Source: Syntrophobacter sp. SbD2
GTDB lineage: Bacteria; Desulfobacterota; Binatia; UBA9968
Direction of reading: 5' to 3'
DNA: 64,000 nucleotides
NCBI GenBank assembly: GCA_945889495.1
Contig: CAMDBU010000006.1
Coordinates: forward strand, 506 to 64,505
The notes under the pieces were generated by a model. The model saw only the letters and a program-made list of their open reading frames with translations. It had not been told where the DNA came from and made no database searches. This document shows positions 13,332 to 29,370 of the stretch, piece after piece. Each line of letters starts with the position of its first letter. Position 1 is the first letter of the stretch. Both the position numbers and the translations under genes were made by a program.

Positions 13332-16130
13332 ATGGACACACCCAAATATCAAAAAAGTGACCCGGCGATCCTCTTGTTAAACGAGATCGACATCCTATTG
13401 GCGCAGACGCGCTTGATGGAGTTGTATCTCAAGCAAGCCCAGGCCACCGCGGCCAACGAAAACGCCCGCATCCACGAACAGTACGAAACCGAGCTGACGG
13501 CGCTGCGCGCCGAGCTCGCCGACAAGGAACGGCAGCTCCAGCAAGCGCCGGCCATCGACCGCAATCTCACCGCGGTCGTCGAGCAACTGCAACGCGAGCT
13601 CAGCGAAAAACAGCAGTGGGTCGCCGGCCAGCACGCGGTATGGCAACGCTCCAGCGGCGAGATCGCCGCGCTGCAACAACGCATCACCCAACTCGAAGGC
13701 GAAAACCAAACCGCGCTCAACGCCGCCCGCGAAGCCAATGGGATCAGGGAAAGTCTGGTCGCCGATGTCAGCGCGCTCAACCGTGAACTGGAGAAAAACC
13801 GGCGCGAATTCGACCACCAGCAACTAACCGCGCGGCAACTCGAAAGCAGCCTACGCGAGCAGCTCCAACTGTTGCAAACCCAGCTCGCCGACAAACAAGC
13901 CTACGCCCTCACGAGCGACGACGAACTCGGCAAAGCCCGTCAAGAAATCGCCGCCCTGCGCCAACATCTGGGCTCCCTGCAAGCGCTCCAGGACGAACTC
14001 CAGGCCAATGCGACGCAATCGCTGGAGCTCGCCCAGGGCCGCTTCGAGGGCGAACTGGTCAGCCTGCGCGCGGCCTTGACCGAGCGCGATCGCTCGGTGG
14101 CCGAGAGCCAAGCCGCGCTGGTCGAGATCGAGCGCGGCCTGCGCGGTGAGATCGACCAGCTGCGCAATGAACTTGATCAAAAGCAAAACGCCTTGCGGCT
14201 GCGCGACGACGATATGCGCAGCGCCGGCGGCCAAATCGCCGCGCTCCAACAACGGCTCGCCGAGCTCGAACTCGCCCAGCGCCAAGCCGCCGCCGCCAAT
14301 GCCGAGAGTGAAAGCCGGCGCCGCGAGCTCGCCGAAGAAGTCGCCAACCTCCAGCATGAAGTGGAGGTCAAGGAAAAAGAGCTGGTCAACCGCTACGAAG
14401 CGGTGACCGCCGTCGAGCTCGCCTTGCATGGCCGCATTCAAGCGTTGCAACAGGAACTGTCGCGCGCCCACGAAGCCTCAGCCGGCCAAGAAGAGGAACT
14501 CGATCAGCAGCGCGCCGCCAGTGCGAACTTACAGAGCCGCATCGCCGAACTGGAACGCAGCCAAGCCGACACCACCCTGCTCGATGCCACCCGGCGCGAA
14601 CTGGAAAGCGATCTCAACCGCCTACGCGCCGACCTGGCGCAAAAAGAATATTTGTTAAGCGGCCGCGAGCGCGCCAGCGTTGAGTTCGAAGCGCGCGCCA
14701 GCGCCGAACTCGCCACCCTGCGCCAACAGCTGGAAGCCGAACGTGGCGCCACCGCCGAAGTCCACCGCGAAGTCGATCAAGCGCGCGCCGAACTCGCCGC
14801 CAGCCGCGACCAGCTCGAAGCCCAGCTCAAACAAAAGGACGATGAGATTGTTAGCCTGCGCGCCAATGCCAGCGGTCAAAGCGCCCAGCTGGCCCAGCAG
14901 GTCAGCGACTTGCAGACGCAACTGGCCGAGCGCGCGAGCGCGGTGGCCAGTCTCGAAGCGCGTCTCGGCGGTGAATTGGCCGCCTGGCACCAACAGTTGG
15001 CCCAAGAACGCAGCAGCGCCAGCCGGGCCAATGACGCGCTAGCGAATTTACAGGCCGAACTCACCACCCTTGGCGAACGCCACGACAGCGAGCGCCAAGC
15101 AAAAGATCAAGCATTAGCCAGCGCCAGCGCGCACAACGAGCAACTGGCCCAGCGGGTGAGCGAACTACAACTGGATTTGGTCGAGAAGCAGCTCCTGGCC
15201 GAGAGTCGGGGCGGCGAACTCGATCAGCTGCGTACCAGCGTCAGCCAGTTCAACGAACAGCTGAGCGACAATGCCGTGCGCCAAGCGCAATTGGATGACG
15301 AGCTCAACCGCTTGACCAGCGCCCGTGACGACGACGCGCGCCAGCAGACCGCCCTCGCAGTGCAGCTCGACCAAGCACGCGTTGCCAACGCCGCCATCCG
15401 CGCTGAACTGCAAGAGACCAAGAACCGCGGCGCTGAACTGGAAGCGCTGCTGGAAAGCCAGCACAGCGCCATGGCGGTGATGGAGACCGAACGCGCCCGC
15501 TTGCGCCAAGATCTCGACGAGCTCGACACGCGCCACCAGCAAAACTTGGCCGATGGCAGACAGGCGTTGACCAGCCTACGCAGTAACTTGGAAGCTGAAC
15601 TGAGCACACTGCGCGCTGAACTGCAGCAAAAAGCCTGGACCCTGGCGCAGCACCAGGCGAGCGTCGAAAATCTCGCCCAGGTGCACCGCGAGCAGATTCG
15701 TAAACTGGAAGCGCGTCTGCACGATCAACAGCCCAACACCGAAGCGTCTTCGCAAGCCGTCGAGCAGGCGCTCAGCCGCGCCAATGATTTGCAGCGCCAG
15801 GTGGAAGAACTGCAAACCGCCTTACATCAAGCCCAAGCCGCCGGCGCAAACCAGGCGGAACAAATTCGCCAGGAATACGCCGCCCGTTTGGAAGCGGCTA
15901 ACAATCAGCTGGCGGTCAAATCCGCCGAGCTCGTTAACAGCGGCGCGGTGCGCGCCAATGTCGAAGAATCCCTGCGCGCCGAACTGAGCCGGCTGCGCCG
16001 CGAAACCCAATCCCGCGCCGAAGCGCTGCAAAGCCGGGAAGAAGAGCTCAACCGCGTGCGCGGCGAAATGACCGCGGTGCAGAACCGCATCGTCCAGTTG
16101 CAGTCGGTGACCGCGCGCAGCGAAATATAG
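13332..16130 (+). CDS. giant coiled-coil protein, 5' portion (932 aa ORF) of a gene interrupted by the integrative element at ~16125; stop at 16128-16130 lies in element DNA
   Basis: pure heptad-rich low-complexity sequence (ELxxLRxEL... repeats), no ATPase motifs; frame continues seamlessly into 28499..29370 if 16125..28498 is removed. Confidence 0.8.
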   Translation: MDTPKYQKSDPAILLLNEIDILLAQTRLMELYLKQAQATAANENARIHEQYETELTALRAELADKERQLQQAPAIDRNLTAVVEQLQRELSEKQQWVAGQHAVWQRSSGEIAALQQRITQLEGENQTALNAAREANGIRESLVADVSALNRELEKNRREFDHQQLTARQLESSLREQLQLLQTQLADKQAYALTSDDELGKARQEIAALRQHLGSLQALQDELQANATQSLELAQGRFEGELVSLRAALTERDRSVAESQAALVEIERGLRGEIDQLRNELDQKQNALRLRDDDMRSAGGQIAALQQRLAELELAQRQAAAANAESESRRRELAEEVANLQHEVEVKEKELVNRYEAVTAVELALHGRIQALQQELSRAHEASAGQEEELDQQRAASANLQSRIAELERSQADTTLLDATRRELESDLNRLRADLAQKEYLLSGRERASVEFEARASAELATLRQQLEAERGATAEVHREVDQARAELAASRDQLEAQLKQKDDEIVSLRANASGQSAQLAQQVSDLQTQLAERASAVASLEARLGGELAAWHQQLAQERSSASRANDALANLQAELTTLGERHDSERQAKDQALASASAHNEQLAQRVSELQLDLVEKQLLAESRGGELDQLRTSVSQFNEQLSDNAVRQAQLDDELNRLTSARDDDARQQTALAVQLDQARVANAAIRAELQETKNRGAELEALLESQHSAMAVMETERARLRQDLDELDTRHQQNLADGRQALTSLRSNLEAELSTLRAELQQKAWTLAQHQASVENLAQVHREQIRKLEARLHDQQPNTEASSQAVEQALSRANDLQRQVEELQTALHQAQAAGANQAEQIRQEYAARLEAANNQLAVKSAELVNSGAVRANVEESLRAELSRLRRETQSRAEALQSREEELNRVRGEMTAVQNRIVQLQSVTARSEI

Positions 16131-16246
16131 CGGTGGTGGTTTTTACCGTTGTTTTTATTGATGTTTTTTAAGTGTAGTATAGTTTGTAGTATAGTACCAA
16201 CGCCGAAATAATATAATAATATCAATTACTTAGAGCGTTTTTTGCC

Positions 16247-16340
16247 TACCGCAAACCACCACAAATCTATTAAACGCGATCACCGTCACTTTGCGTAACA
16301 GTCACACACGCTGAGCATGTGTCTTTGAAAACGACACTTC
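16247..16340. repeat. ~85-bp direct repeat, copy A (copy B at 16733..16815), flanking the H-NS-like gene
   Basis: shared CCGCAAACCACC...ACTTTGCGTAAC(A/G)GTCACACACGCT...GTGTC-loop-GACAC. Confidence 0.7.
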
Positions 16341-16662
16341 AGCTTAAAACAGCAAACGACTCACGCTTTGTGCCAGCTTTCTCAGCAGCCGATAACCAAC
16401 GTGGCGCCGTACCACGTCCTGTCCACGTGTTGCCCTTGCCATCATCGTACTTAACTGCAACTTTCTCTCGTTTTTTGCCAGTAGTCTTTTTCGCAGTAGC
16501 CGCCTTACCGCCCATAGCAGCACGTAATTCTGCCAAAGTAATGTCGTTGGCACTCATCTGCTTGACGATGGCTTTGATGACTTTGCCACGCTTGCGACCA
16601 ATACGTTTTGCTTCTGCTAACAGCTTGGCGATCTGTGCTGCGATTTCCGTTGGTGATCTCAT
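16339..16662 (-). CDS. H-NS family nucleoid-associated protein (xenogeneic silencer-like)
   Basis: 107 aa; C-terminal AVKYDDGKGNTWTGRGTAPRWL matches the H-NS DNA-binding motif (YxxxxGxTWTGxGRxPxW). Confidence 0.75.
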   Translation of the reverse strand: MRSPTEIAAQIAKLLAEAKRIGRKRGKVIKAIVKQMSANDITLAELRAAMGGKAATAKKTTGKKREKVAVKYDDGKGNTWTGRGTAPRWLSAAEKAGTKRESFAVLS

Positions 16663-16866: not shown

Positions 16867-17241
16867 CTAAACCGTAGCTATTGTCTGCTGTGCTTTAACA
16901 AGTGCTTGCTGTGCTTTACGCTGTTGCTGCCGCGCCCGCTCCGCCGTCACAGCTTGTCCCGCACGTTTCGCTAGGGTTTTCAGCGATGCTACACGTTGCT
17001 GGTCGGGTGTCAGCGGTTTGATTGGCTTGATTGATTTGGGTTGTGCTTCAGTAACGCTGGCCGCTTCGCGTTCACGCTCAGCAGCCGATTCAAGCGTTCT
17101 TGCTATTAAATCATGCAACCACTTATCGTGTCGTGCCTTAATTGTACTAGGATGATTAGGTTGGATTTCATGTATACGCATTGGGTATTTAGCGACACAA
17201 GATTTTTCATGCAAATCTTCAACTACTACAAAAAACTTCAA
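16867..17241 (-). CDS. hypothetical protein, paralog of 21009..21236 (shared AKYPMR[IL]HEIQP...TPDQ[QR]RVA[ST]L motif)
   Basis: 124 aa; ~100 nt near-identical DNA shared with 21100..21215. Confidence 0.5.
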   Translation of the reverse strand: MKFFVVVEDLHEKSCVAKYPMRIHEIQPNHPSTIKARHDKWLHDLIARTLESAAEREREAASVTEAQPKSIKPIKPLTPDQQRVASLKTLAKRAGQAVTAERARQQQRKAQQALVKAQQTIATV

Positions 17242-18050: not shown

Positions 18051-18227
18051 TTATTTCCCTTGTAGTGACCACATCGTACATTACGCGCTTGTGCCACTAC
18101 CAAAGCACAAGCACTACAATGCGTTAGCTATTCTGATAGCGCTGCCGACTAAACTTTACATAGCTAGCGTAAATATAACCAAGATTGGAGCGAGGGCAGC
18201 ACAAGCAGTCGCTTGATATGAAATCAC

Positions 18228-18476
18228 CTAATTAACTTTTATAACCACATCGCAATTTCGGGCTTCGCTATTTGTGAGGTAAGAACAATTAATATTTCCA
18301 TTTATTACCTCGCCTTTTATTAGTGCACCATCTTGTTTTACCCAATCTTGCTCCTTCGTTCCGCATACTTTGTTTAATGCCTGGCGAATTGCTTTTGGGG
18401 AAACATTTTTATTTACTGTTATCAAAGCAGTTTGGAGCTGATTTCCCTGCTTCCATTGAGCGTTGACACCCACCAC
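18228..18476 (-). CDS. small hypothetical protein
   Basis: 82 aa ORF in AT-rich cargo; no recognisable motif. Confidence 0.3.
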   Translation of the reverse strand: MVGVNAQWKQGNQLQTALITVNKNVSPKAIRQALNKVCGTKEQDWVKQDGALIKGEVINGNINCSYLTNSEARNCDVVIKVN

Positions 18477-18605
18477 ATCTATACCGAGAAAATTATTTAT
18501 TTTATTTAATGCACCATTGTCAGTAAATTCAGATTATCTAGCTCGCGATCCCACCGCTTTGGATAGGCTTAAACTAAATAGCACTTTTTGAATAAGGTCA
18601 TGTTG

Positions 18606-20288
18606 CTACTGCTTTCGATATTTAGTGATCGAAAAAGCTGGTGCAATAGGACCCACTACGTGGGCAGTTTGGTAGACATAATCTTTATCTAAAAAATAGA
18701 CAGTGAATGCATCAGGACTCCCCACTTCGCCGTAGTCAACAAAAATGGTTCTAAACGTGTCATCAGAAATTTCGTCGAGGATTTTTTTATAAGATTCTGA
18801 AACAGCTTTCATTTTTTGGTAGTCAGCTGCTGAAATTACCTTTTGTTGCAACCATCCAGTGAGGCTATTCAAATCTTTATTTATATCTGTCGCTAATTCT
18901 TTTTTAGTGATTTTTCCTTTGTAATAAGCTAAACATTTTTTTTGCGCGGCAGTTTCATTTTTCACCCATTGACAATCTCCAAACTTCGTTTCGCTAATCG
19001 TCAATTTCTCAGCACTGCCTGACCGCCACACCCCAAGCCATCGATTATTAATGGATAGCGAATCCTGAGGCGCCGTCGCGGTTGCTGGCTGAGCAAGTAA
19101 ATATGACATGCCGGCTTCTTCAATAGCGCCATAAAAACTTTGCTGAAGGAATTTACCTAAACAATCTTGATCATTACAGTCAACCTTATAAACCCCTGAG
19201 TATGCTGTTTTATGGTCAAGTCGGCGTTTAGTTGCATTCTCTTCAGCGTATATATTAAGTCTTCTAATTGCCCATGCAATATTCTTAAAGTCTTCACGTG
19301 CACAGATTAATTGCAATCCTTTGTCACTGATATCACTGCAATTAGGCGGAAGAACATCCGCGTACGACGCGCTCTCTTTCATATGTTGCAAAATTAAATT
19401 GTAGTGTGATGTTTTGATATTCCAATTCTCTAAAGGTTTATTGTTATCATTCTTACTGGTTACACCTTCTCTGACCCCGTTTGATTCACCCTTAGTTTCT
19501 GGCTTTGCATCTGTGCGCTTAGCTTCTGTTGGTGGTGCCTGAACCACTTTATTGATATTCCTAACAAATGAAAGTGTGTCTTCATGACCATCGTTAGTTG
19601 TTAGTTTTAAAGTAAAGCTACCGTCCTTTGAGCTTATTTTTCTAAGTGCCCATACGACTGAAGTATTATTGTTTACGATGAGGCTCAGAATATCACTGCG
19701 GCTATCCCATTCCATTACTTTAACAGGAATCACTTTCCCATTAATTTCTATTGATTTATTGTCGCTTTTCAAGCTTATAACAACAGTGGCCTGATCAGTA
19801 TCACCCTTCCAGACACCGCTTAAATCATCTAAGGGATCACTTCCTTTAAAATCTATAAAGGAAACGATAGCAATTGTAGCGATTATCGATGCGATTCCAA
19901 TATACGCCAACTTATTTTCATCGGATTTTTCTTTTACGAATATCTTTTTGTAATAGTCTATGTTAACCCATCCACCAAAAACCAATGGCATAATAAAATA
20001 AGTTGATGCGTTTAAGTATTGCAATAATTTTATTTCTGGAAAGACTGATTCTAATAATGCTGTCAAAACACAACCGAGGGTTATTATCCCAAAGAGGAAC
20101 AGCCCCTTCTTCGACATTCCTAAGTGTACGTAATAAAAAACACCGAAAATAAATCCCCAAATATTGAATGCCGCCGTCACTCTTTCGCTTAAAGATAAGT
20201 TCTTAACTAAGGGGAGTTTCACACCACCGGCCTTGTCAATTAGATCAAATCTTTTTTTCCATTTACCACTAATTTCTTGCTCGGACAT
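18606..20288 (-). CDS. large membrane/extracytoplasmic protein with N-terminal DUF2628-like membrane module
   Basis: 560 aa; N-terminal NIWGFIFGVFYYVHLGMSKK resembles DUF2628; very AT-rich codon usage. Confidence 0.55.
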   Translation of the reverse strand: MSEQEISGKWKKRFDLIDKAGGVKLPLVKNLSLSERVTAAFNIWGFIFGVFYYVHLGMSKKGLFLFGIITLGCVLTALLESVFPEIKLLQYLNASTYFIMPLVFGGWVNIDYYKKIFVKEKSDENKLAYIGIASIIATIAIVSFIDFKGSDPLDDLSGVWKGDTDQATVVISLKSDNKSIEINGKVIPVKVMEWDSRSDILSLIVNNNTSVVWALRKISSKDGSFTLKLTTNDGHEDTLSFVRNINKVVQAPPTEAKRTDAKPETKGESNGVREGVTSKNDNNKPLENWNIKTSHYNLILQHMKESASYADVLPPNCSDISDKGLQLICAREDFKNIAWAIRRLNIYAEENATKRRLDHKTAYSGVYKVDCNDQDCLGKFLQQSFYGAIEEAGMSYLLAQPATATAPQDSLSINNRWLGVWRSGSAEKLTISETKFGDCQWVKNETAAQKKCLAYYKGKITKKELATDINKDLNSLTGWLQQKVISAADYQKMKAVSESYKKILDEISDDTFRTIFVDYGEVGSPDAFTVYFLDKDYVYQTAHVVGPIAPAFSITKYRKQ

Positions 20289-20372
20289 GGCGTTTCCTTT
20301 AATAAAAGTTTGTCTGAATGTCAGTCCTAATTTAACTCAAGATAGATACTGAGATCCCAGTTATAGCGCTGT

Positions 20373-20900
20373 CTAAATTAGCGAAGCAAATTCTATTGCA
20401 AGTAAGATAAAAATTATGAGCAAGGTGATCAATGCGCCCCAGATACTGGTTCCCCCGATTAGCGAAAAATGTAAGGGTGAGTTGGCCACCCTATGTTTGG
20501 TATCGATGTGATCTAGGTACTGCCCGTTAGCATATATTCCGCAGTATGCGACTACTCCTAGATAGAGTAGGTAGCCAACGATATCGCTTTTCGTAACGTA
20601 CACGGCAATTAAAAACGGGAAAATGGTTCCCCACCATAATACCTGTGCAGTTCGCATATACATTTTTCGGTAAGCGAACCAAAGAGATCCCAGTATCGCA
20701 GCCGGCCAATTCCAGGATCGAAAACTTACAAAAGATGCCCCAGCATTTGTATTGCAAAAGTTTTCAAATTGATAGCGGTAATAGTTAACGTTATTTTTTA
20801 TAAACCGCTCAAATTCCTCCGATGCAACAAACTCCGCAGTTATTCTGCGCTCACCTTCTACGCTTACTTTATTTGGTGTCTGTTGATCGCGGGAATTCAT
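20373..20900 (-). CDS. DUF2628 family membrane protein
   Basis: 175 aa; SWNWPAAILGSLWFAYRKMY hallmark. Confidence 0.65.
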   Translation of the reverse strand: MNSRDQQTPNKVSVEGERRITAEFVASEEFERFIKNNVNYYRYQFENFCNTNAGASFVSFRSWNWPAAILGSLWFAYRKMYMRTAQVLWWGTIFPFLIAVYVTKSDIVGYLLYLGVVAYCGIYANGQYLDHIDTKHRVANSPLHFSLIGGTSIWGALITLLIIFILLAIEFASLI

Positions 20901-21008
20901 TTTATTTAAGCCGCTTGCAAAACATTTTGTTGTCGGAAAAAGAAACGACTTATTTGTTTAGACTGTGAAAAACGCTATTTTTCTACTGCTGTTCAAACTG
21001 AAGAAAAT

Positions 21009-21236
21009 TTAAAATCCTCCGATGGTGCCAAACGGACTAAAGAGGCGTTTTGAGTCATTTTGGCTACAGTAATCGCAGTAATACTTTTTTGACTGCTTGA
21101 TCTCCACGTTTCGCATAGTTTGCAGCGTTGCTACACGCCGCTGATCTGGTGTTTTTGGTTTGATTGTTTTCGGTTGGATTTCATGTAGACGCATTGGGTA
21201 TTTAGCCAACTCTCCCATACCTAAGAGATGTGGCAC
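21009..21236 (-). CDS. hypothetical protein, paralog of 16867..17241
   Basis: 75 aa; LAKYPMRLHEIQPKTIKPKTPDQRRVATLQT. Confidence 0.45.
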   Translation of the reverse strand: MPHLLGMGELAKYPMRLHEIQPKTIKPKTPDQRRVATLQTMRNVEIKQSKKYYCDYCSQNDSKRLFSPFGTIGGF

Positions 21237-21257
21237 ATCACAGTCTTGTTGATACCG

Positions 21258-21779
21258 TCATTCACAAAACCTAAGCTGTTTATAACCATCGAAATATAAA
21301 TTAAGGGGTTTTCCGTCGATCTCAGCAGACCTCAGTTTATATCCTTTTGTTTCTAAGTTATATAGCCATTGGTAGGTAAGCTTCCCCTTTTTTTTCGTCA
21401 CTGTCGCTTCAATTATTACTAAAGTAGGGTTATTGGCATCCGTTACAAAACTTCGCCAGTTCACACTCCCTTCGAGAGCAACGCAGGCAGCGACAGAAAT
21501 CCCTGCTTCAGTTTTCTTCATCACTGCTATCTCCCCGCTCCTGGAAAAAAAGAAAAATATTGCGGCCAGAACGGCCACACTAGCTATTGGCATCGCCCAG
21601 TTTCGGTTTGAGGTCGCAATTGGTTGTTCGGGCATCCTTTCTTGTGATGCTACTTGTGCCGATAGACTAGGTGCATTTGCCGAAGATACAACCACATCAT
21701 CTTCTACTTTAGTTCCGCATGTGTCGCAGAACTTAACGCCTTGCAATAGTTGCTTCCCGCATCCTGTGCAATAAGCCAT
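21258..21779 (-). CDS. zinc-ribbon domain membrane protein
   Basis: 173 aa; N-terminal CTGCGK...CDTCG zinc ribbon, one TM segment. Confidence 0.55.
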   Translation of the reverse strand: MAYCTGCGKQLLQGVKFCDTCGTKVEDDVVVSSANAPSLSAQVASQERMPEQPIATSNRNWAMPIASVAVLAAIFFFFSRSGEIAVMKKTEAGISVAACVALEGSVNWRSFVTDANNPTLVIIEATVTKKKGKLTYQWLYNLETKGYKLRSAEIDGKPLNLYFDGYKQLRFCE

Positions 21780-21917
21780 ACGCTGCTCCCTATTTTCAGT
21801 TCATACCTTTGCCGCTACTAATCCCGATAACAGCCGTTTCAAAGTATTCCACCGTCCAGTACCAGTTTACGAATAAATCTGCGTGATACTGCAAGGGTCA
21901 GACACAGAACGCCGTTG

Positions 21918-22352
21918 CTAACGCTTGAACCCCCGACGCACCACCGCACTGACCGCCTCAATCTGTGCATCAATTTCACCACTCTCCACCGCTTTACGCA
22001 AAACTGCAAGCGTAGCATTCAATTCTGCCGCCGTCGTCTCTACCGCAGTTCGCCCTCGTGCCAATTCCACCACTTTGTTGCCGTATTTGACAGCAACACA
22101 CACCTTGCCACCGTCCACAGCCCAAAACCACGCTTTCACACGTTTGGGTTGCTGTACCACGCTGACATTGCCCGCCGCATCCTTTACACGTTTACTACGC
22201 ATAGCGGTGTAGACGGTACCCGCAGTTTTCGCCGCTGCCAGTGCTATTTGCTCATCCAGTTTTGCCAACAGCTTTTGACGACGCTGTATGACAGGGTTGT
22301 TTTCGCGTTGCGGTTTTGCGGCTACCAATTTCAGTGTGTTCAGTGTGCTCAT
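21918..22352 (-). CDS. hypothetical protein (element core)
   Basis: 144 aa ORF, no recognisable motif. Confidence 0.45.
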   Translation of the reverse strand: MSTLNTLKLVAAKPQRENNPVIQRRQKLLAKLDEQIALAAAKTAGTVYTAMRSKRVKDAAGNVSVVQQPKRVKAWFWAVDGGKVCVAVKYGNKVVELARGRTAVETTAAELNATLAVLRKAVESGEIDAQIEAVSAVVRRGFKR

Positions 22353-23611
22353 TTGTCGTTCTCCCTCTAGTTAAACTACTGAACACACGATAACGTCTGA
22401 TTTTTCAGAATACGAGTGAAGATTATTTTCACATATTGTTTGGTTTGTATAAATAACTATGACGCGAACAGAATGTTGTTTGTTGCCAGATTTGCCGTAG
22501 TTATACGTGCGATCACATTACTACCGAAAAAACGTGCAGCACCACACAGTCGCTTTGGTGCCCTAAAACTGGCCATTGATGTGCACAGGGACGGAAACGC
22601 TGCGCGGTAGCAGCGACTTGCAGTCACTATCCATAATGGACGCATTCGCATTTGTCAGCGAATTGGCGCAAGGAGAAACGAATTTGACACGAAGATGAAG
22701 CTGTGAGAACCCTACAGCTTGCGTCACAAGCAAGCACTGCCTACACGGCAACTTGCAAACTTGCAGTGGTCGTCACTTTGGCTGCTGCACTTAAGTTGCG
22801 TTTGATCAGCAGCACGTAAAAGGAGACCGCCAAACTGCCCTTTACCTCATACAGGTTGTGCCAAAGTGTTAGTGGTAAGAACTCAGCGAATGAGATTTCC
22901 ATATTGAGCCTGTTGCTTAAGGCTCAGTGTGAGTTGAATCTTGCGAATGGGTGTGTATTAAAAGCAATTCATGTATTCAATGCTTCAAATCATTTAATAG
23001 TTCGCGACTTTTTAAAACTACTAAAACTGGAAGTTAAAAAAAATCTGCAAGTCAGCAATACGTAATGAGCGTAGCGAATGAAGTAGTGCGACGCAGCAGA
23101 AACTGAGCGCGAAGCGTTCAGTTAAAAATAGACTGCCAAATAATGCTGCACGAGGCTATGGGTTGAGGTTTTTGTAACCATCTCTGTCAGCAAAACCTTC
23201 CAGCATTACAAAACCACCCTGTTGTGTCAATCATCAGCACCTGGCTGTTACATGGAACTGATACAGCACACGGCTACGCACTACACACCGACTACAGCGG
23301 TTAACGCTGAGACGCACGAAACAACGCCGCAAGCGTTTTGGTACAGCGTGGGCAAGCGTGGGTAGCTGAATGCTGCCTGACAACGCGATAACGCACGATA
23401 ACGTTGCTGAAGCGATTTACGCGACACACAGCACTGCACCCGCTATGTACAGCCCAATTCAGAATCAAATAGTTTCACTAAAGTATTTGGTCAGACGCGA
23501 ACTGCTTGAAATCATTGACCTCTTTTGCAGAGCCAGTTTCGGTCGTATTTTCGGAACAACGAATGCACAATAAATACACGACTATTATTTGATTAACGGG
23601 AGAAACGACAA

Positions 23612-24178
23612 ATGGCGCAAGCACGTACACTGAAGGAAAAAGAACTCAAACAACTACTGCAATTTATTGCTTTTCGCAAACACGCATTACGGAACCGCTG
23701 TATGTTGCTGATTACGCATTGGGCTGGAATGCGGGTTGGAGAAGTGGCTGCACTGCAATACTCAGATGTGCTGGCAGCAGACGGCAGCATACTTGCCGAA
23801 ATACGTTTGGCAGCAGATCAGACTAAAGGCGACAAAGCACGTGTTGTGTATGTGGCAGAAAAACTACGCAAAGAACTGCTGAACTATGTTCGCACTTACC
23901 CGCAGACTAACCCAACACGCCCCTTGTTTTACACGCAGAAACGCGACCACTTCACAGCAAACACTTTGGCACAGCACTTTTTCTGGTTGTACAAGGCGGC
24001 AGGGCTAAATGGTGCTTCGTCACATTCTGGCCGAAGGACTTTCATCACTACTTTGGCAAACAAGGGGGTCAGTGTGCGGTTACTGCAAGCTCTTGCTGGT
24101 CACCGTTCAATTACCACTACCCAAGTGTATATCGACGTAAATGACGCGATGAAGCGAGCGGCGGTGGAACTGGTGTGA
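23612..24178 (+). CDS. short tyrosine recombinase (catalytic domain only, phage-integrase family)
   Basis: 188 aa; R...HSGRRTF...LAGHRSITTTQVY (R-HxxR-Y catalytic residues). Confidence 0.75.
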   Translation: MAQARTLKEKELKQLLQFIAFRKHALRNRCMLLITHWAGMRVGEVAALQYSDVLAADGSILAEIRLAADQTKGDKARVVYVAEKLRKELLNYVRTYPQTNPTRPLFYTQKRDHFTANTLAQHFFWLYKAAGLNGASSHSGRRTFITTLANKGVSVRLLQALAGHRSITTTQVYIDVNDAMKRAAVELV

Positions 24179-24312
24179 GTGTCGTTTTGAAAGACACTTA
24201 TGCACGGACTGCTGTGGAATCAGGCTAAAACTTCGGTGTGGGAGTTTTGCTGCTGCAATCTTGTTGAGATTGCTGCAACCGTCCAGCAACGAGACGGTTG
24301 CACTTCGAAACA

Positions 24313-25020
24313 TTATTTCTTTTTGCTGGGAACCACAGACAAACCGCACTGCGCTGATTTCGCAACAGTAGGTAGGGGCGGCAGTGCCAAGCCGTTACGA
24401 GCCAAGTAGATGAGTTCATCCAGCTTGTTCATGTAATCGCGCAAGTCGCCTGTTGACTCCACCAGTTGCAAACAGTACAGAGCCTGCTGATCCGACAAAT
24501 GAACGTCTTCGCTCTGCAGAATTAATTGCGCTCTAGTTAGAACTTGACGTGCGCTCAAAGCAGGGAAATTTATCAGGCCACAGCGCGAACGCAGACTTTT
24601 GTGAATGTTCATCGCATCGTTGGTCGTGACAATCAACATGACTCTGTCCTGCACGGCATCAAGCGCTTTCCAAAAATTGGCGAAATCCCCTTTTAGGGTA
24701 TCTAGTTCCTCCGCCACGATAAACAATTTCTCTCCCTCCTCAAGAAATATAACGGAGGTCGCGCTCTGTAAATAAGTACGTAGATTTTTCATGCGCACGA
24801 GTTCTTCCATGTCTTTGTGTTCAATTCGTGCGTGTGCGCCGCCGATAGCCACTGGCAGTAAACGCGCCGCTGTACTTTTTCCAGTACCGTTCGGCCCCCA
24901 AAGCAAGATGTTTCCTTCAAGTGCCTTGTTTGCATAGGCGTCAATTCGGGTTTGCACAGCCAGGCTGGGGTAGATCACATCGCCAAGTGACTGGGGTGCG
25001 TATTTGATAGCGGTTTTCAT
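24313..25020 (-). CDS. clamp-loader-like (RFC/DnaX-type) AAA+ ATPase
   Basis: 235 aa; KYAPQSLGDVI...LLWGPNGTGKST (RFC box II/III), Walker B IFLEEGE, SRC arginine-finger motif LRSRCGLINF. Confidence 0.7.
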   Translation of the reverse strand: MKTAIKYAPQSLGDVIYPSLAVQTRIDAYANKALEGNILLWGPNGTGKSTAARLLPVAIGGAHARIEHKDMEELVRMKNLRTYLQSATSVIFLEEGEKLFIVAEELDTLKGDFANFWKALDAVQDRVMLIVTTNDAMNIHKSLRSRCGLINFPALSARQVLTRAQLILQSEDVHLSDQQALYCLQLVESTGDLRDYMNKLDELIYLARNGLALPPLPTVAKSAQCGLSVVPSKKK

Positions 25021-25092
25021 GTTTTGTGTTCCTTTGTGTAGTGGTTTTTTTTGTGTATGTCGAAAAGGGGAGTTCCCTCCCCCTTTCGGTCA

Positions 25093-25878
25093 TTAAGCTA
25101 CTTTTGCGAAAACATCCGCGTTGGCCGCCATCCCCAACAAATCGCTAGCCTCTTTGTTGAGCGCCTGATCTGCATCTTTTTGACCAGCGCGAACTTTTGC
25201 CATGCGTATCAGCAGTGCCTGAACGAGAGCTTCGTTGATGTCGGACAAAACACCCACAATAGAAACCATGCCGTCTGGTGCAGGTTTAGCCAGCAAAACA
25301 GCGTAATCCCCAGTGACGCCCGCCAGCGACAGCGTTGCCAATGGAGTAATTGTCGCTAGTTCCACGTTCGCTTTGACTTCGCCAGTAGCCGAAACAATCG
25401 CAGCACGTTTCGCCTGTGCCGCTTCTGACACCACCATATCGCGTTTGATTTCTTCGATGCCGCCTTGTTCTGCGATGTAAGCGGGCAGATCGTTAGCGGT
25501 GATAGCTTTAGAAATCGCCGCTTTGAGCACGTAGGCATAGCCATGCGCACGTTTGCGATCTGAGCTGAATACGAAACGCACGAACATCGTGAGTGTCGTC
25601 GTGTTGCTCTGCACTTTGACTCCATCCGCTGTAAGCCGCGCACAAAGCTCATTGCGCAGCGTCTTACGGCTGTTGCCATCAGCGTTTACGAACTTGTTTT
25701 GGAATACGTCCAAGCAGCCCGCAAGCAACGCGTACAGCCCATCATTAGCTTTCTTGTAGTCAGTTATTTCCCACTGCTGACGACGCTCAGACAGAGCGTC
25801 CAGAGACTGGACGATGCCATTTGCAATAATCATGTTGTCGTTCGACGGGGTAAAGGCGGTTTTGACAGATTTGCTCAT
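25093..25878 (-). CDS. hypothetical protein upstream of the AAA+ ATPase (likely start ATG 25876-25878 with GGAGA RBS)
   Basis: 262 aa; ORF track version starts 37 codons earlier. Confidence 0.5.
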   Translation of the reverse strand: MSKSVKTAFTPSNDNMIIANGIVQSLDALSERRQQWEITDYKKANDGLYALLAGCLDVFQNKFVNADGNSRKTLRNELCARLTADGVKVQSNTTTLTMFVRFVFSSDRKRAHGYAYVLKAAISKAITANDLPAYIAEQGGIEEIKRDMVVSEAAQAKRAAIVSATGEVKANVELATITPLATLSLAGVTGDYAVLLAKPAPDGMVSIVGVLSDINEALVQALLIRMAKVRAGQKDADQALNKEASDLLGMAANADVFAKVA

Positions 25879-26017
25879 TTTGATTCTCCGATTTAAAAGT
25901 CGGCGCGATGCTGGTGGCGGAATTGCCAGAAGTTGTATCGCGCTGACGAATAGGATTAGATCACTAAGAACTAATAAATCAGTCAACAACCAATAATCAG
26001 TTATTATCTGTAGACAT

Positions 26018-26953
26018 ATGAAAGAACAATTGCTTCCGTGGTACCTCCGTAGCGCGGATTTCTACAAACCGAACTGGCACACACGGCCTACGATTGGCTT
26101 TGAGTTGCTGTTTGAGTTTTTGCGGCTCAGCCCTAGCTATGAACTGGCCCGCAAAGCCAGCATGGAAGGGCTAAGCACTGCTGACCAGCTACTATTGCCG
26201 CCAGATTTTGAGCAGGTAAAAAACACCTATCAGCTCTTGGGCGATGTGCAAAAAATCTTGTTTCGGCAATGGTGGATCGCAAGAGGACTCAGCACCTTTG
26301 GCAATCCCTACGCACGCCCAAAATTGCACGCAGTCGCACAACTGGCAGGTGGGAAAGATATTTCGGCTGAAACCCTCGTAGGTAACTTCGAAAGTTACCT
26401 AGCTGGAGCGCGTCATGAGGAAGGGCTAGTGGATAGCGTGCTCATCGCAGTCCCTTTGGGCCTACGTCAATCAGAAATCCGCAGACAGATGTCCGCTATT
26501 CTTACTGCCTATTCAGGCCATGAGCAAAACTCACGGCAAAGTCCATTGATAAAATTGCAAGGCAAGCGGCTGCGATCAAAGGTGCTGTTCAATGGCCTAC
26601 GACTGCTTTGGTTTAAAGCTGCAAAACCCCAATGGGAACACTGGCGGCTGGGTGCTAAATCAAGATTCAGCGTCACCTATTCCAAAGAACTCAATCCTGC
26701 CAATCCCCGTAGAGTGGTCAGCACGCTGGAATCGTACGATAGAGAGATGATGACAAAAATCACCAATCGCGCGCTGAAGAAATTCGAATCCATTGCGGAG
26801 AACGCAGCAAGAGGGCGATTCCCTTCGCAAGACCCAGTCCATCCAGTAGATTTTCAGTATCCGTTTCTTGCCAAACGAATACAGCGCAAAAACACATGGG
26901 AACAAGAGGAGAAAGCACGGTTACTTGCGGCATTCCGCAGCCGTCGGCATTAG
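26018..26953 (+). CDS. hypothetical protein
   Basis: 311 aa ORF adjacent to integrase; no motif recognised. Confidence 0.5.
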   Translation: MKEQLLPWYLRSADFYKPNWHTRPTIGFELLFEFLRLSPSYELARKASMEGLSTADQLLLPPDFEQVKNTYQLLGDVQKILFRQWWIARGLSTFGNPYARPKLHAVAQLAGGKDISAETLVGNFESYLAGARHEEGLVDSVLIAVPLGLRQSEIRRQMSAILTAYSGHEQNSRQSPLIKLQGKRLRSKVLFNGLRLLWFKAAKPQWEHWRLGAKSRFSVTYSKELNPANPRRVVSTLESYDREMMTKITNRALKKFESIAENAARGRFPSQDPVHPVDFQYPFLAKRIQRKNTWEQEEKARLLAAFRSRRH

Positions 26954-27101
26954 TGCAAGACCGTCCCGTTGCTGGACGCTTGCTGAACGTAACAGCCCAG
27001 CACGACCCAGCCCACTCACGTATTCGCCCCTATTTCACCGTCGGTTCGGCGGTGATTTTGGTTTGGTGCTGCCGCAGAGGGCTGTCGTGCAAATCCGAAA
27101 C

Positions 27102-28370
27102 TCAGGCTTTCTGCCGCTTCTTCGTCGGTTTCATCGACTGCAATTTAGCCACGTTCATTTCGTTCTGGTAATGACTGCCGTAGAAACGTGTGATCATTTC
27201 CGCGCTAGTTCTGGCATTTTGCGCCAACGTATTCCAGTCGATGTTGTCGCCCTTAGTAATCCGAAACATGATTGCTGTGTGACGCAGGCTATACAACGTG
27301 CGCACCGTACTTTTCGCATCCAGTCGCAAATCAGTCACTTCTAGCAAGTGGTAAAACAGTCGCACCAGCTGTACGTAAGCGTAGTCTCTGTTGCGATGCT
27401 CTGGCATAAACACGTAATCGTCGTCTTTAGCCAATTTCCGTTCAGCTTGATATTCTCGTTGCCGTTCATACACTTCAACGGCGATGGGCATACTGATGAA
27501 GGGCTTGTTGTGCTTTTTGGTGGTTGGGGGTGACAAGCGCAAATACGTGTTGTCCTTTCGCACTACTGCCACATGCGAATGCTTCAGCACCTTAATATCT
27601 GATGGCCGCACGTAAGTGTTGACCATAAACAAGATCAAGTTATGCAACTCTTGTGTAAATCGCATCCGCCGCTCTGCCTTACCTTGCGCATTACGCACAA
27701 CGATCTCAGTGCCTACTAATGCCTTCGCTTTGTTATGCAGTTTCGTGTATTCCCAACTATTAAAATAACCACGCGGGTCATCTTCCATAGTGATGGTGGG
27801 AAACGCGGGTAAGTGCGGGATGATTTGCTTGCGGTGGGCGTGCTTTAACACTTTACGCAGCAGCGATTCGTGTAACTTAAGCGTTGCGACCTTCAGCCCT
27901 TTTTCCGTCAGCGTGTTTAAGTAAGTCTCTATAACCGTGTAATCAATCTGCCCCACATCGTATGTGCGGAAATACGGCAGCATGTGTACACGCAGACGGC
28001 TTTGTTCGTTGACGTTGATGCTTGCGCTGAGTTCCCCGCGCTTGATGCGTGACTCTTGCAACTTCAGCATCTCTTTCGCGCAAACCTCAAAGCGCGAATT
28101 TTTACCAATAACTAAACCACCCGTCTTACGCACAAGCAGCTCTTCGTAAAAGGCAATGGCTGCCTTAAACGCTTCGTTCTTCTTATCAGTTTTTGTAGTG
28201 CGTTTGAAAATTCTTCCGCTATCGTAAAAACGTGCCCAATAAAATGGGGAGGCGTCGATGCGGAATATGACTAGCTTGCTTGGATAATTCGGTACAGATT
28301 CAACAGTAGAGGGAATAGGAACTGTTCTGTGCCTACTAATTACCAAAGCTGTTTCATGCTTAGTATCCAT
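27102..28370 (-). CDS. int: tyrosine-type site-specific integrase (P4-like, ~420 aa)
   Basis: C-terminal LYSLRHTAIMF...Y catalytic box; N-terminal arm-binding-like region; located at element end next to tRNA-like att fragment. Confidence 0.88.
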   Translation of the reverse strand: MDTKHETALVISRHRTVPIPSTVESVPNYPSKLVIFRIDASPFYWARFYDSGRIFKRTTKTDKKNEAFKAAIAFYEELLVRKTGGLVIGKNSRFEVCAKEMLKLQESRIKRGELSASINVNEQSRLRVHMLPYFRTYDVGQIDYTVIETYLNTLTEKGLKVATLKLHESLLRKVLKHAHRKQIIPHLPAFPTITMEDDPRGYFNSWEYTKLHNKAKALVGTEIVVRNAQGKAERRMRFTQELHNLILFMVNTYVRPSDIKVLKHSHVAVVRKDNTYLRLSPPTTKKHNKPFISMPIAVEVYERQREYQAERKLAKDDDYVFMPEHRNRDYAYVQLVRLFYHLLEVTDLRLDAKSTVRTLYSLRHTAIMFRITKGDNIDWNTLAQNARTSAEMITRFYGSHYQNEMNVAKLQSMKPTKKRQKA

Positions 28371-28446
28371 GCTTGTAGTATAGCTTATACTATACTACAA
28401 AATCAACCACGTAAATTCCTAACTGATTGAATTTACGTGGTTTTTT

Positions 28447-28498
28447 TGGTGGAGACGAGGAGGATCGAACTCCCGACCTTCGCATTGCGAAAGCGAAG
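28447..28498 (-). tRNA. 3' half of a tRNA-Ala(CGC)-like sequence (CCA end, T-arm GGGAG-TTCGATC-CTCCT, acceptor 3' strand CGTCTCC with U70, A73 discriminator); fragment only, att-site derived, not a functional tRNA
   Basis: manual fold of reverse complement; no matching 5' half (no D-arm, no complementary acceptor strand) downstream. Confidence 0.6.
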
Positions 28499-29370
28499 CT
28501 CGGGAAATCAGCCAAGCCAAGAGCGGGCTGGAAAACGAACTCACCAGCCTACGCGGCGAGGTTCAACAAAAAGCCGCCGCGGTAGCCCAACAACAGGCAG
28601 CGATGGATGAGCTGGCGGCCAACTACCGGCACCAGGTGGAAGAGCTCGAAGCCAATCTCAGCGCCCATCAACAGGCCAGCGAACAGCGCCGCCGCGAAGT
28701 CGATCAAGCGCAGGCACAGATCGATCAATTGCACGGCCGGATCGCTGAGTTGCAAACCGAGTTGCAGCACGCCGAAGCGAACGCCAAGCGCGCCGCCACG
28801 CTCGAACAGCGCGCCGGCGCAAATTCCGCGCTTGAGCAAGCGCTGCGTAGCGAGATCGACCGGCTCATCGGCGAGGCTCAGGAACGCAATCAGATCTTGC
28901 AAGATCGCAACGAAGAATTGGTCAGAGTTAAAACCGATCTCGACGGCTTGACCGAGCGTTTCACCCAGCTGGAGTCCCAGGCGGTCCAAGCCGAAAAGAA
29001 CGCCGATGGTGAAACCGAGAGCATGCAGACGGAATATCAAGCCCAGCTGGCGCTGCTGCAAGCCGAGCTCAGCCAGAAGGAATGGGCGCTGGAAGAGCGC
29101 CAAGCGATCATCGCCGGCTTGGAGCAGGAACATCGCCACGAGCTCGAAGCCTTGCGCCAACAGTTGGCGGCCAAGGAGGTCGCGCTCACGCCCGCGCCAG
29201 GCGCCTTCGTGTTGGGCGATCCCAACCTGACCGACGAGCAGCGCGACAAACTCAAAAAGCTCGACGACATTGAGAGTGAATTACGCAATGGCGACGCCCT
29301 CGGCACTAGCCTGCTGAACCGCCGCCGTTGGCCCGGCGGCTTCGGGTCGAAACGCCGTTGGCGTTCCTAA
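28499..29370 (+). CDS. 3' portion of the interrupted giant coiled-coil gene (ORF track ATG at 28603)
   Basis: in-frame coiled-coil translation begins immediately after the AGCGAA repeat (…SEAREISQAKSGLENELTSLRGEVQQK…); repeats resemble those of 13332..16130. Confidence 0.7.

What the first reader, a model, noticed from the sequence alone, without database searches (positions are those of the whole stretch)
28447..28498. tRNA-Ala-like 3' half at the integrase-proximal end: likely secondary-site integration of a tRNA-targeting element
The reverse complement of 28447-28498 folds as the 3' part of a tRNA: variable loop, T-arm GGGAG/TTCGATC/CTCCT, acceptor strand CGTCTCC, A73, CCA. U70 and A73 are the tRNA-Ala identity elements, and the anticodon region reads CGC. 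No 5' half follows. P4-type integrases carry the tRNA 3' end in attP. Here the element sits in a protein-coding gene that shares only AGCGAA with the anticodon-stem region, which suggests integration at a degenerate secondary att site.
Basis: partly seen in the sequence, partly recalled or inferred. Interest (0 to 1): 0.6.

Follow-up and report, generated by a model that had tools for sequence, protein, structure and literature searches.

The report
tRNA-targeting island inserted at a pseudo-site
A 12.4-kb mobile element that normally inserts into an alanine tRNA gene of freshwater proteobacteria has instead landed inside a protein-coding gene of a bacterium from another phylum, at a short sequence that mimics the tRNA's anticodon arm; this kind of event is well known, but here every partner site could be recovered.

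Summary
Window 28447-28491 (- strand) is 45 nt identical to positions 32-76 (anticodon loop to CCA) of the tRNA-Ala(CGC) gene common in Burkholderiales. No 5' half is present.

It is the attP-borne copy of a 12,367-bp low-GC integrative element (16126-28492) with a lambda-Int-like tyrosine integrase (27102-28370, -). The element splits a Binatia coiled-coil gene.

All four att partners were recovered:
- The attP junction comes from an independent metagenome contig (L152).
- The empty site comes from a relative (L123).
- Both junctions are in the window.

Recombination was conservative, and the crossover lies in TTTCGC, the first five bases of the anticodon loop plus one. The TTCGCT next to the loop (28492-28497) is host gene sequence, not tRNA stem. 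The host site matches the real tRNA attB at 16 of 22 positions.

Sibling elements sit at complete tRNA-Ala(CGC) or tRNA-Thr(CGT) genes, and the tRNA-Thr(CGT) sibling L139 retains its displaced 3' fragment.

The crossover is in the loop, not the stem hexamer. The integrase is not P4-type by domain content.

This is a new, well-documented example of a known phenomenon, secondary-site integration. Interest is modest.

The parts
28447..28491 (-). Element-borne 3' portion of tRNA-Ala(CGC): anticodon loop TTCGCAA, 3' anticodon stem, variable loop, T-arm, acceptor 3' strand, A73, CCA (tRNA positions 32-76, 45 nt)
   Evidence: Identical to the dominant tRNA-Ala(CGC) gene of 87/120 genome loci. The same 45 nt sit in the attP junction of L152.
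28492..28498 (+). Host coding sequence (second AGCGAA = Ser-Glu, plus G). On the - strand it reads TTCGCT and mimics the 5' strand of the anticodon stem (tRNA has GTCGCG). It is not tRNA-derived.
   Evidence: Absent from attP in L152. Present as AGCGAAAGCGAA in the empty site of L123. All 13 homologues have ...AR[ST]ESEAREI....
28487..28492 (.). GCGAAA (TTTCGC on the - strand): right copy of the 6-bp identity between attP and the host site, within which the strands crossed over
   Evidence: attP x attB' reconstruction reproduces both junctions base for base.
16120..16125 (.). GCGAAA: left copy of the crossover identity
16126..28492 (-). Integrative element, 12,367 bp, GC 0.453 against 0.594 for the host flanks
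   Evidence: Composition. The circularised element is colinear with L152 across the junction, 94.5% over 1181 nt. The gene order int-311aa-261aa-AAA-188aa recombinase-DUF6641 is shared with siblings.
27102..28370 (-). Integrase, 422 aa, a divergent lambda-Int-like tyrosine recombinase
   Evidence: PHROG_1 integrase E=3e-19. Pfam hits are sub-threshold. AF2 model pLDDT 85.6. Top Foldseek hits are full-length lambda Int 1z1g/1z1b, E about 2e-8, about 394 aligned columns. R255, K285, R363, H364 and Y397 are invariant in 27 homologues.
28405..28442 (-). 14-bp-stem hairpin immediately 3' of the CCA, followed by GATTTT. It looks like a terminator for a regenerated tRNA, and lies in the P' arm.
   Evidence: fold z = -7.0. 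Also present in L152.
28375..28398 (.). Inverted pair of GTAGTATAG just upstream of the int start codon. It overlaps a promoter-like site (-35 at 28406-28401, -10 at 28382-28377 on the - strand). Proposed arm-type or operator sites.
   Evidence: These are two of only four copies of the 9-mer in the window. The same layout occurs in all siblings. Promoter scan.
16174..16194 (.). Direct pair of GTAGTATAG in the P arm at the far end of the element
   Evidence: Homologous P arms occur in L137, L139, L146 and L152.
13332..16130 (+). 5' part of the host coiled-coil gene. It runs 931 codons of host sequence, then ATA TAG supplied by the element.
   Evidence: The truncated 932-aa product is called in 4 assemblies.
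28493..29370 (+). 3' part of the same host gene, in frame with the 5' part once the element is removed
   Evidence: Full-length homologues of 1217-1352 aa align across the junction. The DNA empty site is in L123.
16339..16662 (-). H-NS-like gene, the last gene of the element before the P arm
   Evidence: PF00816 E=1.2e-12. The same gene lies directly upstream of attP in L137 and L152.

Best explanation
The fragment is the tRNA-Ala(CGC) 3' segment that a small integrative element carries in its attP. The element's lambda-Int-like tyrosine integrase normally recombines attP with the anticodon-loop region of a tRNA gene. That regenerates the tRNA from the element-borne 3' half and displaces the host's 3' half to the far end.

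Here the same reaction used a pseudo-attB inside a coiled-coil gene of a Candidatus Binatia bacterium. On the tRNA-sense strand:
- host site: GAGC T TCGCT TTCGCTG CGCGC
- real attB: GAGC G TCGCG TTCGCAA TGCGA

Strand exchange took place within TTTCGC and was conservative.
- The integrase-proximal junction is host...TTCGCT + TTCGCAA + TGCGAAGG...CCA.
- The distal junction is ...CCGCTATAT + TTCGCTG + CGCGCGG...host.

The two junctions carry different last two bases of the 7-nt loop (AA and TG). That is what is expected when a mismatched overlap is resolved by replication or repair.

Because the target was not a tRNA, no 5' half precedes the fragment and no displaced fragment marks the far end.

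Shown: the identity of the fragment, the attP junction, the empty site, both junctions, conservative exchange, and the primary tRNA targets of siblings.

Inferred:
- that the 422-aa protein catalysed the event
- that GTAGTATAG repeats are arm sites
- that the element came from a proteobacterium, and why the primary site was not used
For: (1) Fragment identity. The 45 nt equal positions 32-76 of the tRNA-Ala(CGC) gene found in mostly betaproteobacterial genomes.

(2) attP. JGI contig L152 reads H-NS gene, P arm ending ...CCACCGCTATAT, then TTCGCAATGCGAAGG...CCA, hairpin, GTAGTATAG inverted repeat, int ATG. The search pattern allowed 0-6 extra bases and the gap found was 0. The circularised window element aligns with L152 across the junction at 94.5% over 1181 nt.

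(3) Empty site. A 1235-aa intact orthologue (85% aa identity, same neighbours) has ...GCGCGC AGCGAA AGCGAA GCCCGGG.... All 13 full-length homologues have the two Ser-Glu pairs. The reconstructed attB' differs from L123 by 3 SNPs in 60 nt.

(4) attP x attB' crossed in TTTCGC reproduces both window junctions exactly, with no base gained or lost.

(5) The junction 60-mers are identical in independent assemblies: the left junction in L125-L128, the right junction in L001.

(6) Siblings.
- An integrase 63% identical sits right after a complete tRNA-Ala(CGC) in 5 contigs.
- Integrases 89-92% identical sit after a complete tRNA-Thr(CGT).
- L139 shows the full canonical island. Its displaced fragment begins exactly at the anticodon loop, and its P arm is homologous to the window's.

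(7) The insertion site is the single best match (16/22) to tRNA positions 22-43 in 51.6 kb of host DNA on both strands.

(8) The integrase fold matches full-length lambda Int.

(9) Literature. Anticodon-centred attP is one of the standard tDNA sublocations (PMC4383910). Secondary-site integration with mismatched crossover regions gives ends with different crossover sequences (PMC3715440).
Against: No copy of this exact element was found at a bona fide tRNA-Ala(CGC); only siblings with 63% integrase identity are at that tRNA. The attP-type junction (L152) could come from a circle or from a tandem array.

Sites matching attB at 16/22 or better are expected roughly once per 50 kb, so on the order of 100 per genome. 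Sequence similarity alone therefore does not explain why this site was used.

The host's own tRNA-Ala(CGC) could not be examined, so it is unknown whether a primary site was available.

The host's pre-insertion sequence is inferred from relatives, not observed in the same strain.

The integrase is below Pfam gathering thresholds, and no activity was tested. The element also encodes a second, 188-aa tyrosine recombinase.
Confidence: 0.87

Rival explanations
1. The crossover was in the hexamer TTCGCT/AGCGAA at tRNA positions 26-31, the stem 5' strand. It requires attP to carry TTCGCT TTCGCAA and the host gene to have had a single AGCGAA.
For: AGCGAA is present at both junctions, 16119-16124 and 28492-28497. 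A single-unit reconstruction also gives an open frame.
Against: attP in L152 has no TTCGCT unit; the pattern allowed a 0-6 nt gap and the gap found was 0. Sibling attPs L137 and L136 also start tRNA identity at the loop. All 13 homologues have two Ser-Glu pairs, and the L123 empty site has AGCGAAAGCGAA.
Confidence: 0.04
2. The fragment is a displaced host tRNA 3' half, or an internal junction of a tandem island array at a real tRNA-Ala(CGC). On this view the GC-rich DNA upstream of it is another island.
For: Displaced 3' fragments of this very tRNA exist elsewhere (L033 Sulfuriferula, L076, L097). Tandem arrays are common at tDNAs (PMC4383910).
Against: The sequences on the two sides of the island are the two halves of one conserved gene, in frame and in conserved synteny. 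The fragment is next to int, as the attP-borne copy is. The window holds no tRNA.
Confidence: 0.02
3. Illegitimate, microhomology-mediated insertion of a circular element without the integrase. On this view the position in the att core is a coincidence.
For: Only 6 bp of uninterrupted identity are shared between attP and the host site. Sites matching attB at least as well are not rare.
Against: The break in the element falls exactly at the position used in canonical integrations of siblings, the loop. The exchange is perfectly conservative. The flanks of the host site resemble the attB arms at 16/22, the best match in 51.6 kb.
Confidence: 0.05
4. Metagenome assembly chimera that joins a proteobacterial element to a Binatia contig through a shared short repeat.
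For: The strong GC contrast. Contig L002 breaks inside the T-arm.
Against: Both junctions are present. The junctions are exact in four samples and five contigs. A chimera would not place an element precisely between the two in-frame halves of one gene.
Confidence: 0.02

Closest known systems
tDNA-targeting genomic islands with anticodon-centred attP (Islander class 'A'; Williams' anticodon-loop sublocation; PMC4383910)
   Same: A tyrosine integrase lies next to, and co-oriented with, the tDNA segment. attP carries the tRNA from the anticodon loop to the 3' end. The crossover is in the loop. Siblings regenerate the tRNA and leave a displaced 3' fragment (L139).
   Different: In the window the target is a protein-coding gene, so there is no regenerated tRNA and no displaced fragment. 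An Islander-type search, which pairs a tDNA with its fragment, would miss it.
Secondary (pseudo-attB) integration of site-specific elements: lambda at secondary sites, ICEBs1 (PMC3715440), SGI1 (PMC2297512), SXT
   Same: Integration occurs at a site partly similar to attB. The exchange is conservative. The mismatched overlap is resolved to different sequences at the two ends. A gene is disrupted.
   Different: Those cases were produced or observed in the element's normal host, usually after the primary site was deleted. This one is a natural event seen in metagenomes, in a host of another phylum than the siblings' hosts. Whether the primary site was missing is unknown.
Lambda integrase (heterobivalent tyrosine recombinase; PDB 1z1g, 1z1b)
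   Same: The predicted fold matches over about 394 columns, including an N-terminal beta-sheet domain. R, K, R and Y are conserved at the expected places. Repeated 9-mers lie in both arms of attP.
   Different: Sequence identity is about 15%. There is no Pfam assignment above threshold. The first His of the HxxR motif is Tyr (Y360). The arm sites and any Xis or IHF requirement are unknown.
P4-type integrases
   Same: They target tRNA genes and carry the tRNA 3' segment in attP.
   Different: No DUF4102/Arm-DNA-bind_3 N-terminal domain was found.

Membership tests
tRNA-Ala(CGC) gene | Complete cloverleaf detectable by a tRNA finder or covariance model | tested here: not met
   ARAGORN finds 0 genes in the window. 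Rfam finds no tRNA at gathering threshold. At E<=10 there is only an 11.2-bit truncated tmRNA partial hit.
tRNA-Ala(CGC) gene | Sequence identity of the 3' portion (loop CGC, T-arm, U70, A73, CCA) to real tRNA-Ala(CGC) genes | tested here: met
   45/45 nt match the gene present in 87 of 120 loci. 59/60 scanned loci are called tRNA-Ala(cgc).
tmRNA 3' end (alternative source of an Ala-like acceptor/T-arm) | Exact matches elsewhere lie in tmRNA genes | tested here: not met
   All complete genes that hold the 29-mer are tRNA-Ala(cgc), and none is a tmRNA.
tDNA-targeting island, anticodon-centred attP | attP holds the tDNA from the crossover site to the 3' end, beginning at the anticodon loop | tested here: met
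   L152 attP junction...CCGCTATAT|TTCGCAATGCGAAGG...CCA.
tDNA-targeting island, anticodon-centred attP | Tyrosine integrase gene adjacent to the tDNA segment | tested here: met
   int lies 76 nt downstream and is co-oriented. Fold and profile evidence.
tDNA-targeting island, anticodon-centred attP | Integrated in a tDNA, with a regenerated gene at one end and a displaced 3' fragment at the other | tested here: not met
   In the window the target is a coiled-coil gene, and there is no tRNA and no second fragment. The feature is met by sibling L139, whose integrase is 91% identical.
Secondary-site (pseudo-attB) integration | An uninterrupted target exists, and the junctions equal attP x target with no gain or loss | tested here: met
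Secondary-site (pseudo-attB) integration | The target resembles the primary attB around the crossover | tested here: met
   16/22 over tRNA positions 22-43, the best of about 103,000 positions in the host DNA of the window. Six other sites reach 15/22.
Secondary-site (pseudo-attB) integration | The same element uses the primary site (tRNA-Ala(CGC)) elsewhere | tested here: inconclusive
   Only siblings were found at tRNA-Ala(CGC) (63% int identity) or tRNA-Thr(CGT) (89-92%). The one other context of this element is the attP-type junction.
Secondary-site (pseudo-attB) integration | The primary site is absent or divergent in this host | not testable with these tools
Lambda-Int-like heterobivalent tyrosine recombinase | Three-domain fold: arm-binding, core-binding, catalytic | tested here: met
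   AF2 pLDDT 85.6. Foldseek top hits 1z1g_A and 1z1b_A, E about 2e-8, about 394 aligned columns. The profile hits the integrase SAM-like domain 2kd1.
Lambda-Int-like heterobivalent tyrosine recombinase | Catalytic R-K-H-R-H/W-Y residues | tested here: inconclusive
   R255, K285, R363, H364 and Y397 are invariant in 27 homologues. The first His is Y360. The assignment is by motif inspection, not by structure superposition.
P4-type integrase | N-terminal DUF4102 / Arm-DNA-bind_3 domain | tested here: not met
   Pfam scan at E<=0.01 lists only Phage_int_SAM_5 and Phage_integrase, both below their cut-offs.

The most novel reading that the evidence does not exclude
The element belongs to an undescribed family of small (about 9-12 kb) integrative elements of freshwater Burkholderiales-type proteobacteria.
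- Nearly identical integrases (91% identity) serve either tRNA-Ala(CGC) or tRNA-Thr(CGT), through the shared anticodon arm TTCG[C/T]AATGCGAAGGTC.
- The elements carry the orphan Polynucleobacter-1 RNA next to a 188-aa recombinase.
- One member has crossed into the phylum Binatota, where it established itself at a tRNA-anticodon-arm mimic inside a gene.

On this reading, a short arm-plus-half-overlap match is enough for a tRNA-targeting integrase to colonise a distant lineage.
Probability: 0.35. Interest if true: 0.5.

Novelty: new member of a known kind. Interest (0 to 1): 0.35.

Why it matters
This is a complete natural example of secondary-site integration assembled from public data alone: attP, empty site, both junctions and the primary-site siblings.

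- **Island finders.** Methods that pair a tRNA gene with its displaced fragment will miss such insertions, and orphan tRNA 3' halves can mark them.
- **tRNA annotation.** The fragment is an example of what tRNA annotators must not call a gene.
- **Host range.** The GC contrast, the betaproteobacterial tRNA sequence, the H-NS gene and the Burkholderiales-specific RNA motif inside a Binatia contig suggest transfer between phyla. That bears on how far tRNA-targeting elements can spread when the exact attB is not guaranteed.
- **Pseudo-site requirements.** The site identity (one arm plus five of seven overlap bases) gives a concrete datum on how little a pseudo-attB needs.

Tried and rejected
- **tmRNA origin.** The acceptor CGTCTCCACCA and Rfam's only partial hit suggested it. 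All complete genes holding the 29-mer are tRNA-Ala(cgc), so it was rejected.
- **Direct repeat of the tRNA fragment at the far end.** None was found.
- **Homologues of the integrase within the 120 tRNA-Ala(CGC) genome loci.** None was found. Those loci include other, unrelated islands at the same tRNA (L033, L076, L097).
- **My first reconstruction, with one AGCGAA.** It gave an open frame. It was abandoned when L123 and 13 homologues showed two units and L152 showed attP without the unit.
- **Defence-system and NCBIfam scans of the cargo.** Nothing informative came out.
- **Sequence search of PDB with the integrase alone.** No hit. The profile hit only the core-binding domain.
- **Phage and plasmid collections.** No phage match, and only about 27%-identical integrases on alphaproteobacterial replicons.
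- **IMG/VR.** Only a 37%-identical relative.
- **Invertible-switch repeats around the 188-aa recombinase.** Nothing convincing.

Full report
**1. Observation**

On the - strand, 28498->28447 reads CTTCGCT TTCGCAA TGCGA AGGTC GGGAG TTCGATC CTCCT CGTCTCC A CCA. A 14-bp hairpin follows, then an inverted repeat, then an ORF start.

ARAGORN finds no tRNA or tmRNA anywhere in the window. Rfam at gathering threshold finds only a Polynucleobacter-1 RNA at 22534-22670. With permissive thresholds the fragment gives just an 11.2-bit, 5'-truncated tmRNA hit, and one lower-scoring overlapping match from the same clan was left out without its family being named. Covariance models therefore do not certify the fragment.

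Direct comparison does.
- The 29-mer GGTCGGGAGTTCGATCCTCCTCGTCTCCA is unique in the window, with 0 matches in 100 shuffles.
- It is exact in at least 120 genome loci, mostly Burkholderiales and other betaproteobacteria.
- 59 of 60 scanned loci carry a complete tRNA-Ala(cgc) ending in it.
- The window is identical to the commonest gene (87/120) from position 32 through CCA, which is 45 nt at 28447-28491.

The tmRNA alternative is excluded.

**2. Surroundings**

A low-GC block (0.39-0.50) spans about 16.1-28.5 kb between flanks of about 0.60. The element is 0.453 GC and the host flanks 0.594.

Next to the fragment, and co-oriented with it, is a 422-aa ORF (27102-28370, -).
- It hits PHROG_1 'integrase' at 3e-19.
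- Its Pfam integrase domain hits are only sub-threshold.
- A model built with 27 homologues has pLDDT 85.6.
- The best PDB matches to that model are full-length lambda integrase (1z1g, 1z1b; E about 2e-8; about 394 aligned columns), ahead of Cre, Tn1549 Int and Xer.
- R255, K285, R363, H364 and Y397 are invariant in the family.
- No DUF4102 arm domain was found, so I do not file it as P4-type.

The island interrupts a + strand coiled-coil gene. ORF 13332-16130 ends in ATA TAG, supplied by the island. The frame resumes at 28493 and runs to 29370.

**3. The host gene and the empty site**

The joined protein finds uninterrupted homologues of 1217-1352 aa. These include P0001 (85% identity, 100% coverage) and several named Candidatus Binatia. 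P0001 lies in the same gene neighbourhood: aminotransferase, glyoxalase and CNNM upstream; two KaiC-like ATPases, ClpB and two MFS genes downstream.

At the DNA level the relative L123 reads ...GCGCGC AGCGAA AGCGAA GCCCGGG... at the insertion point. All 13 full-length homologues have ...AR[ST]ESEAREI..., that is two Ser-Glu pairs.

The window's ClpB falls in a 90%-identity cluster named Candidatus Binatia, phylum Candidatus Binatota.

The left junction 60-mer is exact in four contigs from four samples. The right junction is exact in a further locus. The insertion is therefore real and not an assembly artefact.

**4. attP**

I predicted two possible attP sequences, with or without a TTCGCT unit before the loop. 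I then scanned metagenome contigs with CCGCTATAT N{0,6} TTCGCAATGCGAAGGTC.

There was one hit, L152, and its gap is 0. It reads H-NS gene, CTATACTACAAACTATACTAC...CCACCGCTATAT|TTCGCAATGCGAAGGTCGGGAGTTCGATCCTCCTCGTCTCCACCA, hairpin, GTAGTATAG-N-CTATACTAC, ATG of int. The circularised window element is colinear with L152 across this junction, at 94.5% over 1181 nt.

Three conclusions follow.
- Both ends of the island belong to one 12,367-bp element (16126-28492).
- attP carries the tRNA from the anticodon loop onward and has no stem 5' strand.
- The TTCGCT at 28492-28497 is host DNA.

**5. The recombination event**

On the tRNA-sense strand the four sites are:
- attP: CCGCTATAT TTCGCAA TGCGAAGG
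- attB': GAGCTTCGCT TTCGCTG CGCGCGG
- integrase-proximal junction: GAGCTTCGCT TTCGCAA TGCGAAGG
- distal junction: CCGCTATAT TTCGCTG CGCGCGG

This is a conservative exchange within TTTCGC (GCGAAA at 16120-16125 and 28487-28492), and no base is gained or lost.

The last two loop bases differ between the two junctions (AA and TG). Menard and Grossman describe exactly this outcome for ICEBs1 at secondary sites, where a mismatched crossover region is resolved to different left and right ends. They also found that excision from such sites is impaired (PMC3715440). An anticodon-centred attP is one of the standard tDNA sublocations (PMC4383910).

**6. How good is the pseudo-site?**

Against the real attB (tRNA positions 22-43, GAGCGTCGCGTTCGCAATGCGA), the host site GAGCTTCGCTTTCGCTGCGCGC matches 16/22. 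The matches are the left arm and five of the seven loop bases. This is the single best score among about 103,000 positions of host DNA in the window; six other sites reach 15/22.

By extrapolation, a genome of several Mb would hold on the order of a hundred sites this good. The similarity makes the site eligible but does not single it out.

**7. Siblings at primary sites**

- P0109 (63% identity) lies immediately after a complete, consensus tRNA-Ala(CGC) downstream of leuA in five contigs. It shares cargo with the window element: the 188-aa recombinase and DUF6641.
- P0237 (91%), P0236 and P0102 (89%) lie after a complete tRNA-Thr(CGT).
- L139 contains a whole island of this kind. Its attL is a full tRNA. 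9452 bp further on there is a displaced fragment that begins exactly at the loop (caataa|TTCGTAA TGCGAAGGTC...). Its P arm is homologous to the window's. Its T-arm differs from the element-borne copy, which confines the crossover to TTCGTAATGCGAAGGTC.
- L137 (92%) and L136 (68%) are attP-type junctions with Thr and with a variant Ala 3' half.
- Host labels for siblings are Betaproteobacteria and Gammaproteobacteria.

The 9-mer GTAGTATAG occurs only four times in the window: two direct copies in the P arm (16174, 16186) and an inverted pair in front of int (28375-28398). Every sibling has the same layout. I infer that these are arm-type or operator sites. A sigma-70-like promoter match overlaps the inverted pair.

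**8. Origin**

Several features point to a proteobacterial, probably freshwater Burkholderiales, source for the element, which now sits in a Binatia chromosome:
- the exact betaproteobacterial tRNA sequence
- the H-NS gene
- the Polynucleobacter-1 RNA, whose known range is 'Burkholderiales, fresh water/estuary' (PMC2864571), and which is also present in siblings L129 and L131
- the sibling host labels
- the 14-point GC deficit

This is inference. Whether the primary site was unavailable therefore remains open.

**9. Comparison and verdict**

The element works like an anticodon-class tDNA island with a lambda-type heterobivalent integrase. The event is a secondary-site integration of the kind known for lambda, ICEBs1, SXT and SGI1 (PMC3715440, PMC2297512).

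The integrase family has no close relatives in the collections searched:
- phages: no match
- plasmids: 27% identity at most
- IMG/VR: 37% at best

The crossover is in the loop, and the adjacent 'stem' hexamer is host sequence. The integrase is not demonstrably P4-type.

Novelty: a new member of a known kind. Interest is modest. What value it has comes from the completeness of the reconstruction, the apparent cross-phylum host, and the Ala/Thr target switching among near-identical integrases.

Noticed in passing
window 22534-22670 (+); L129 16150-16290 (-); L131 6342-6482 (-): The orphan Polynucleobacter-1 RNA motif (RF01718; 93.5 bits in the window) lies inside the mobile element. It is conserved in sibling elements integrated at tRNA-Ala(CGC). 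It is always divergent from the DUF6641 gene, and it is co-oriented with the 188-aa recombinase about 0.8-0.9 kb downstream. The motif may be a component of this element family rather than of Polynucleobacter chromosomes as such.
   Followed up: partly
window 23612-24178 (+): A second tyrosine recombinase of only 188 aa, a catalytic domain alone (PF00589 E=1.7e-28). Its best NCBIfam similarities are to Xer recombinases and tyrosine-type DNA invertases. It is conserved in siblings. No convincing flanking inverted repeats were found. Its role is unknown.
   Followed up: partly
L139 9872-9947 and 19355-19400; L137 766-810; window integrase: Integrases 89-92% identical to the window's serve tRNA-Thr(CGT) instead of tRNA-Ala(CGC). 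The two tRNAs share TTCG[C/T]AATGCGAAGGTC. In L139 the element-borne 3' half and the displaced host 3' half differ in the T-arm, and L137's attP carries the other T-arm version. The family therefore swaps the tRNA segment it carries.
   Followed up: partly
L033 (Sulfuriferula sp. GW1), L076, L097: Other, unrelated islands use the same tRNA-Ala(CGC). Their displaced fragments begin in the anticodon stem (TCGCA TTCGCAA...). L033 and L097 share arm repeats GTGTGCCAAAATTGTGCCAA / GTGTGGCAAAATTGTGGCAA. No homologue of the window's integrase lies within those 8-kb loci.
   Followed up: no
window 13332-16130 + 28493-29370; homologues P0001-P0019: The interrupted host gene encodes a coiled-coil protein of about 1220-1350 aa with a conserved N-terminus (MDxPKYQKSDPAILLLNEIDILLAQTRLMELYLKQAQ) and C-terminus (GFGxKRRWRS). 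It is conserved in Binatia-like MAGs and always lies upstream of two KaiC-like ATPase genes and clpB. Its function is unknown.
   Followed up: no
window 16339-16662 (-), with direct repeats 16281-16326 / 16751-16796: An H-NS-like gene is the last gene of the AT-rich element. It is flanked on both sides by an 87%-identical 46-nt repeat. H-NS on an AT-rich island could act as a self-silencer.
   Followed up: no
window 16976-17024 / 21118-21166 and 17156-17193 / 21169-21206; 17353-17568: Internal direct repeats (80-95% identity) link the 5' regions of two cargo ORFs about 4 kb apart. A 108-nt tandem duplication lies inside the Sel1-repeat gene (17238-18050).
   Followed up: no
L002 position 1 (Logan ERR5863107): A contig carrying the identical integrase starts exactly inside the T-arm (TCGGGAG...). 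This is most simply a k-mer graph break caused by the many tRNA-Ala(CGC) genes in the sample that share the 3' 32-mer. It shows how such junctions get lost in short-read assemblies.
   Followed up: partly
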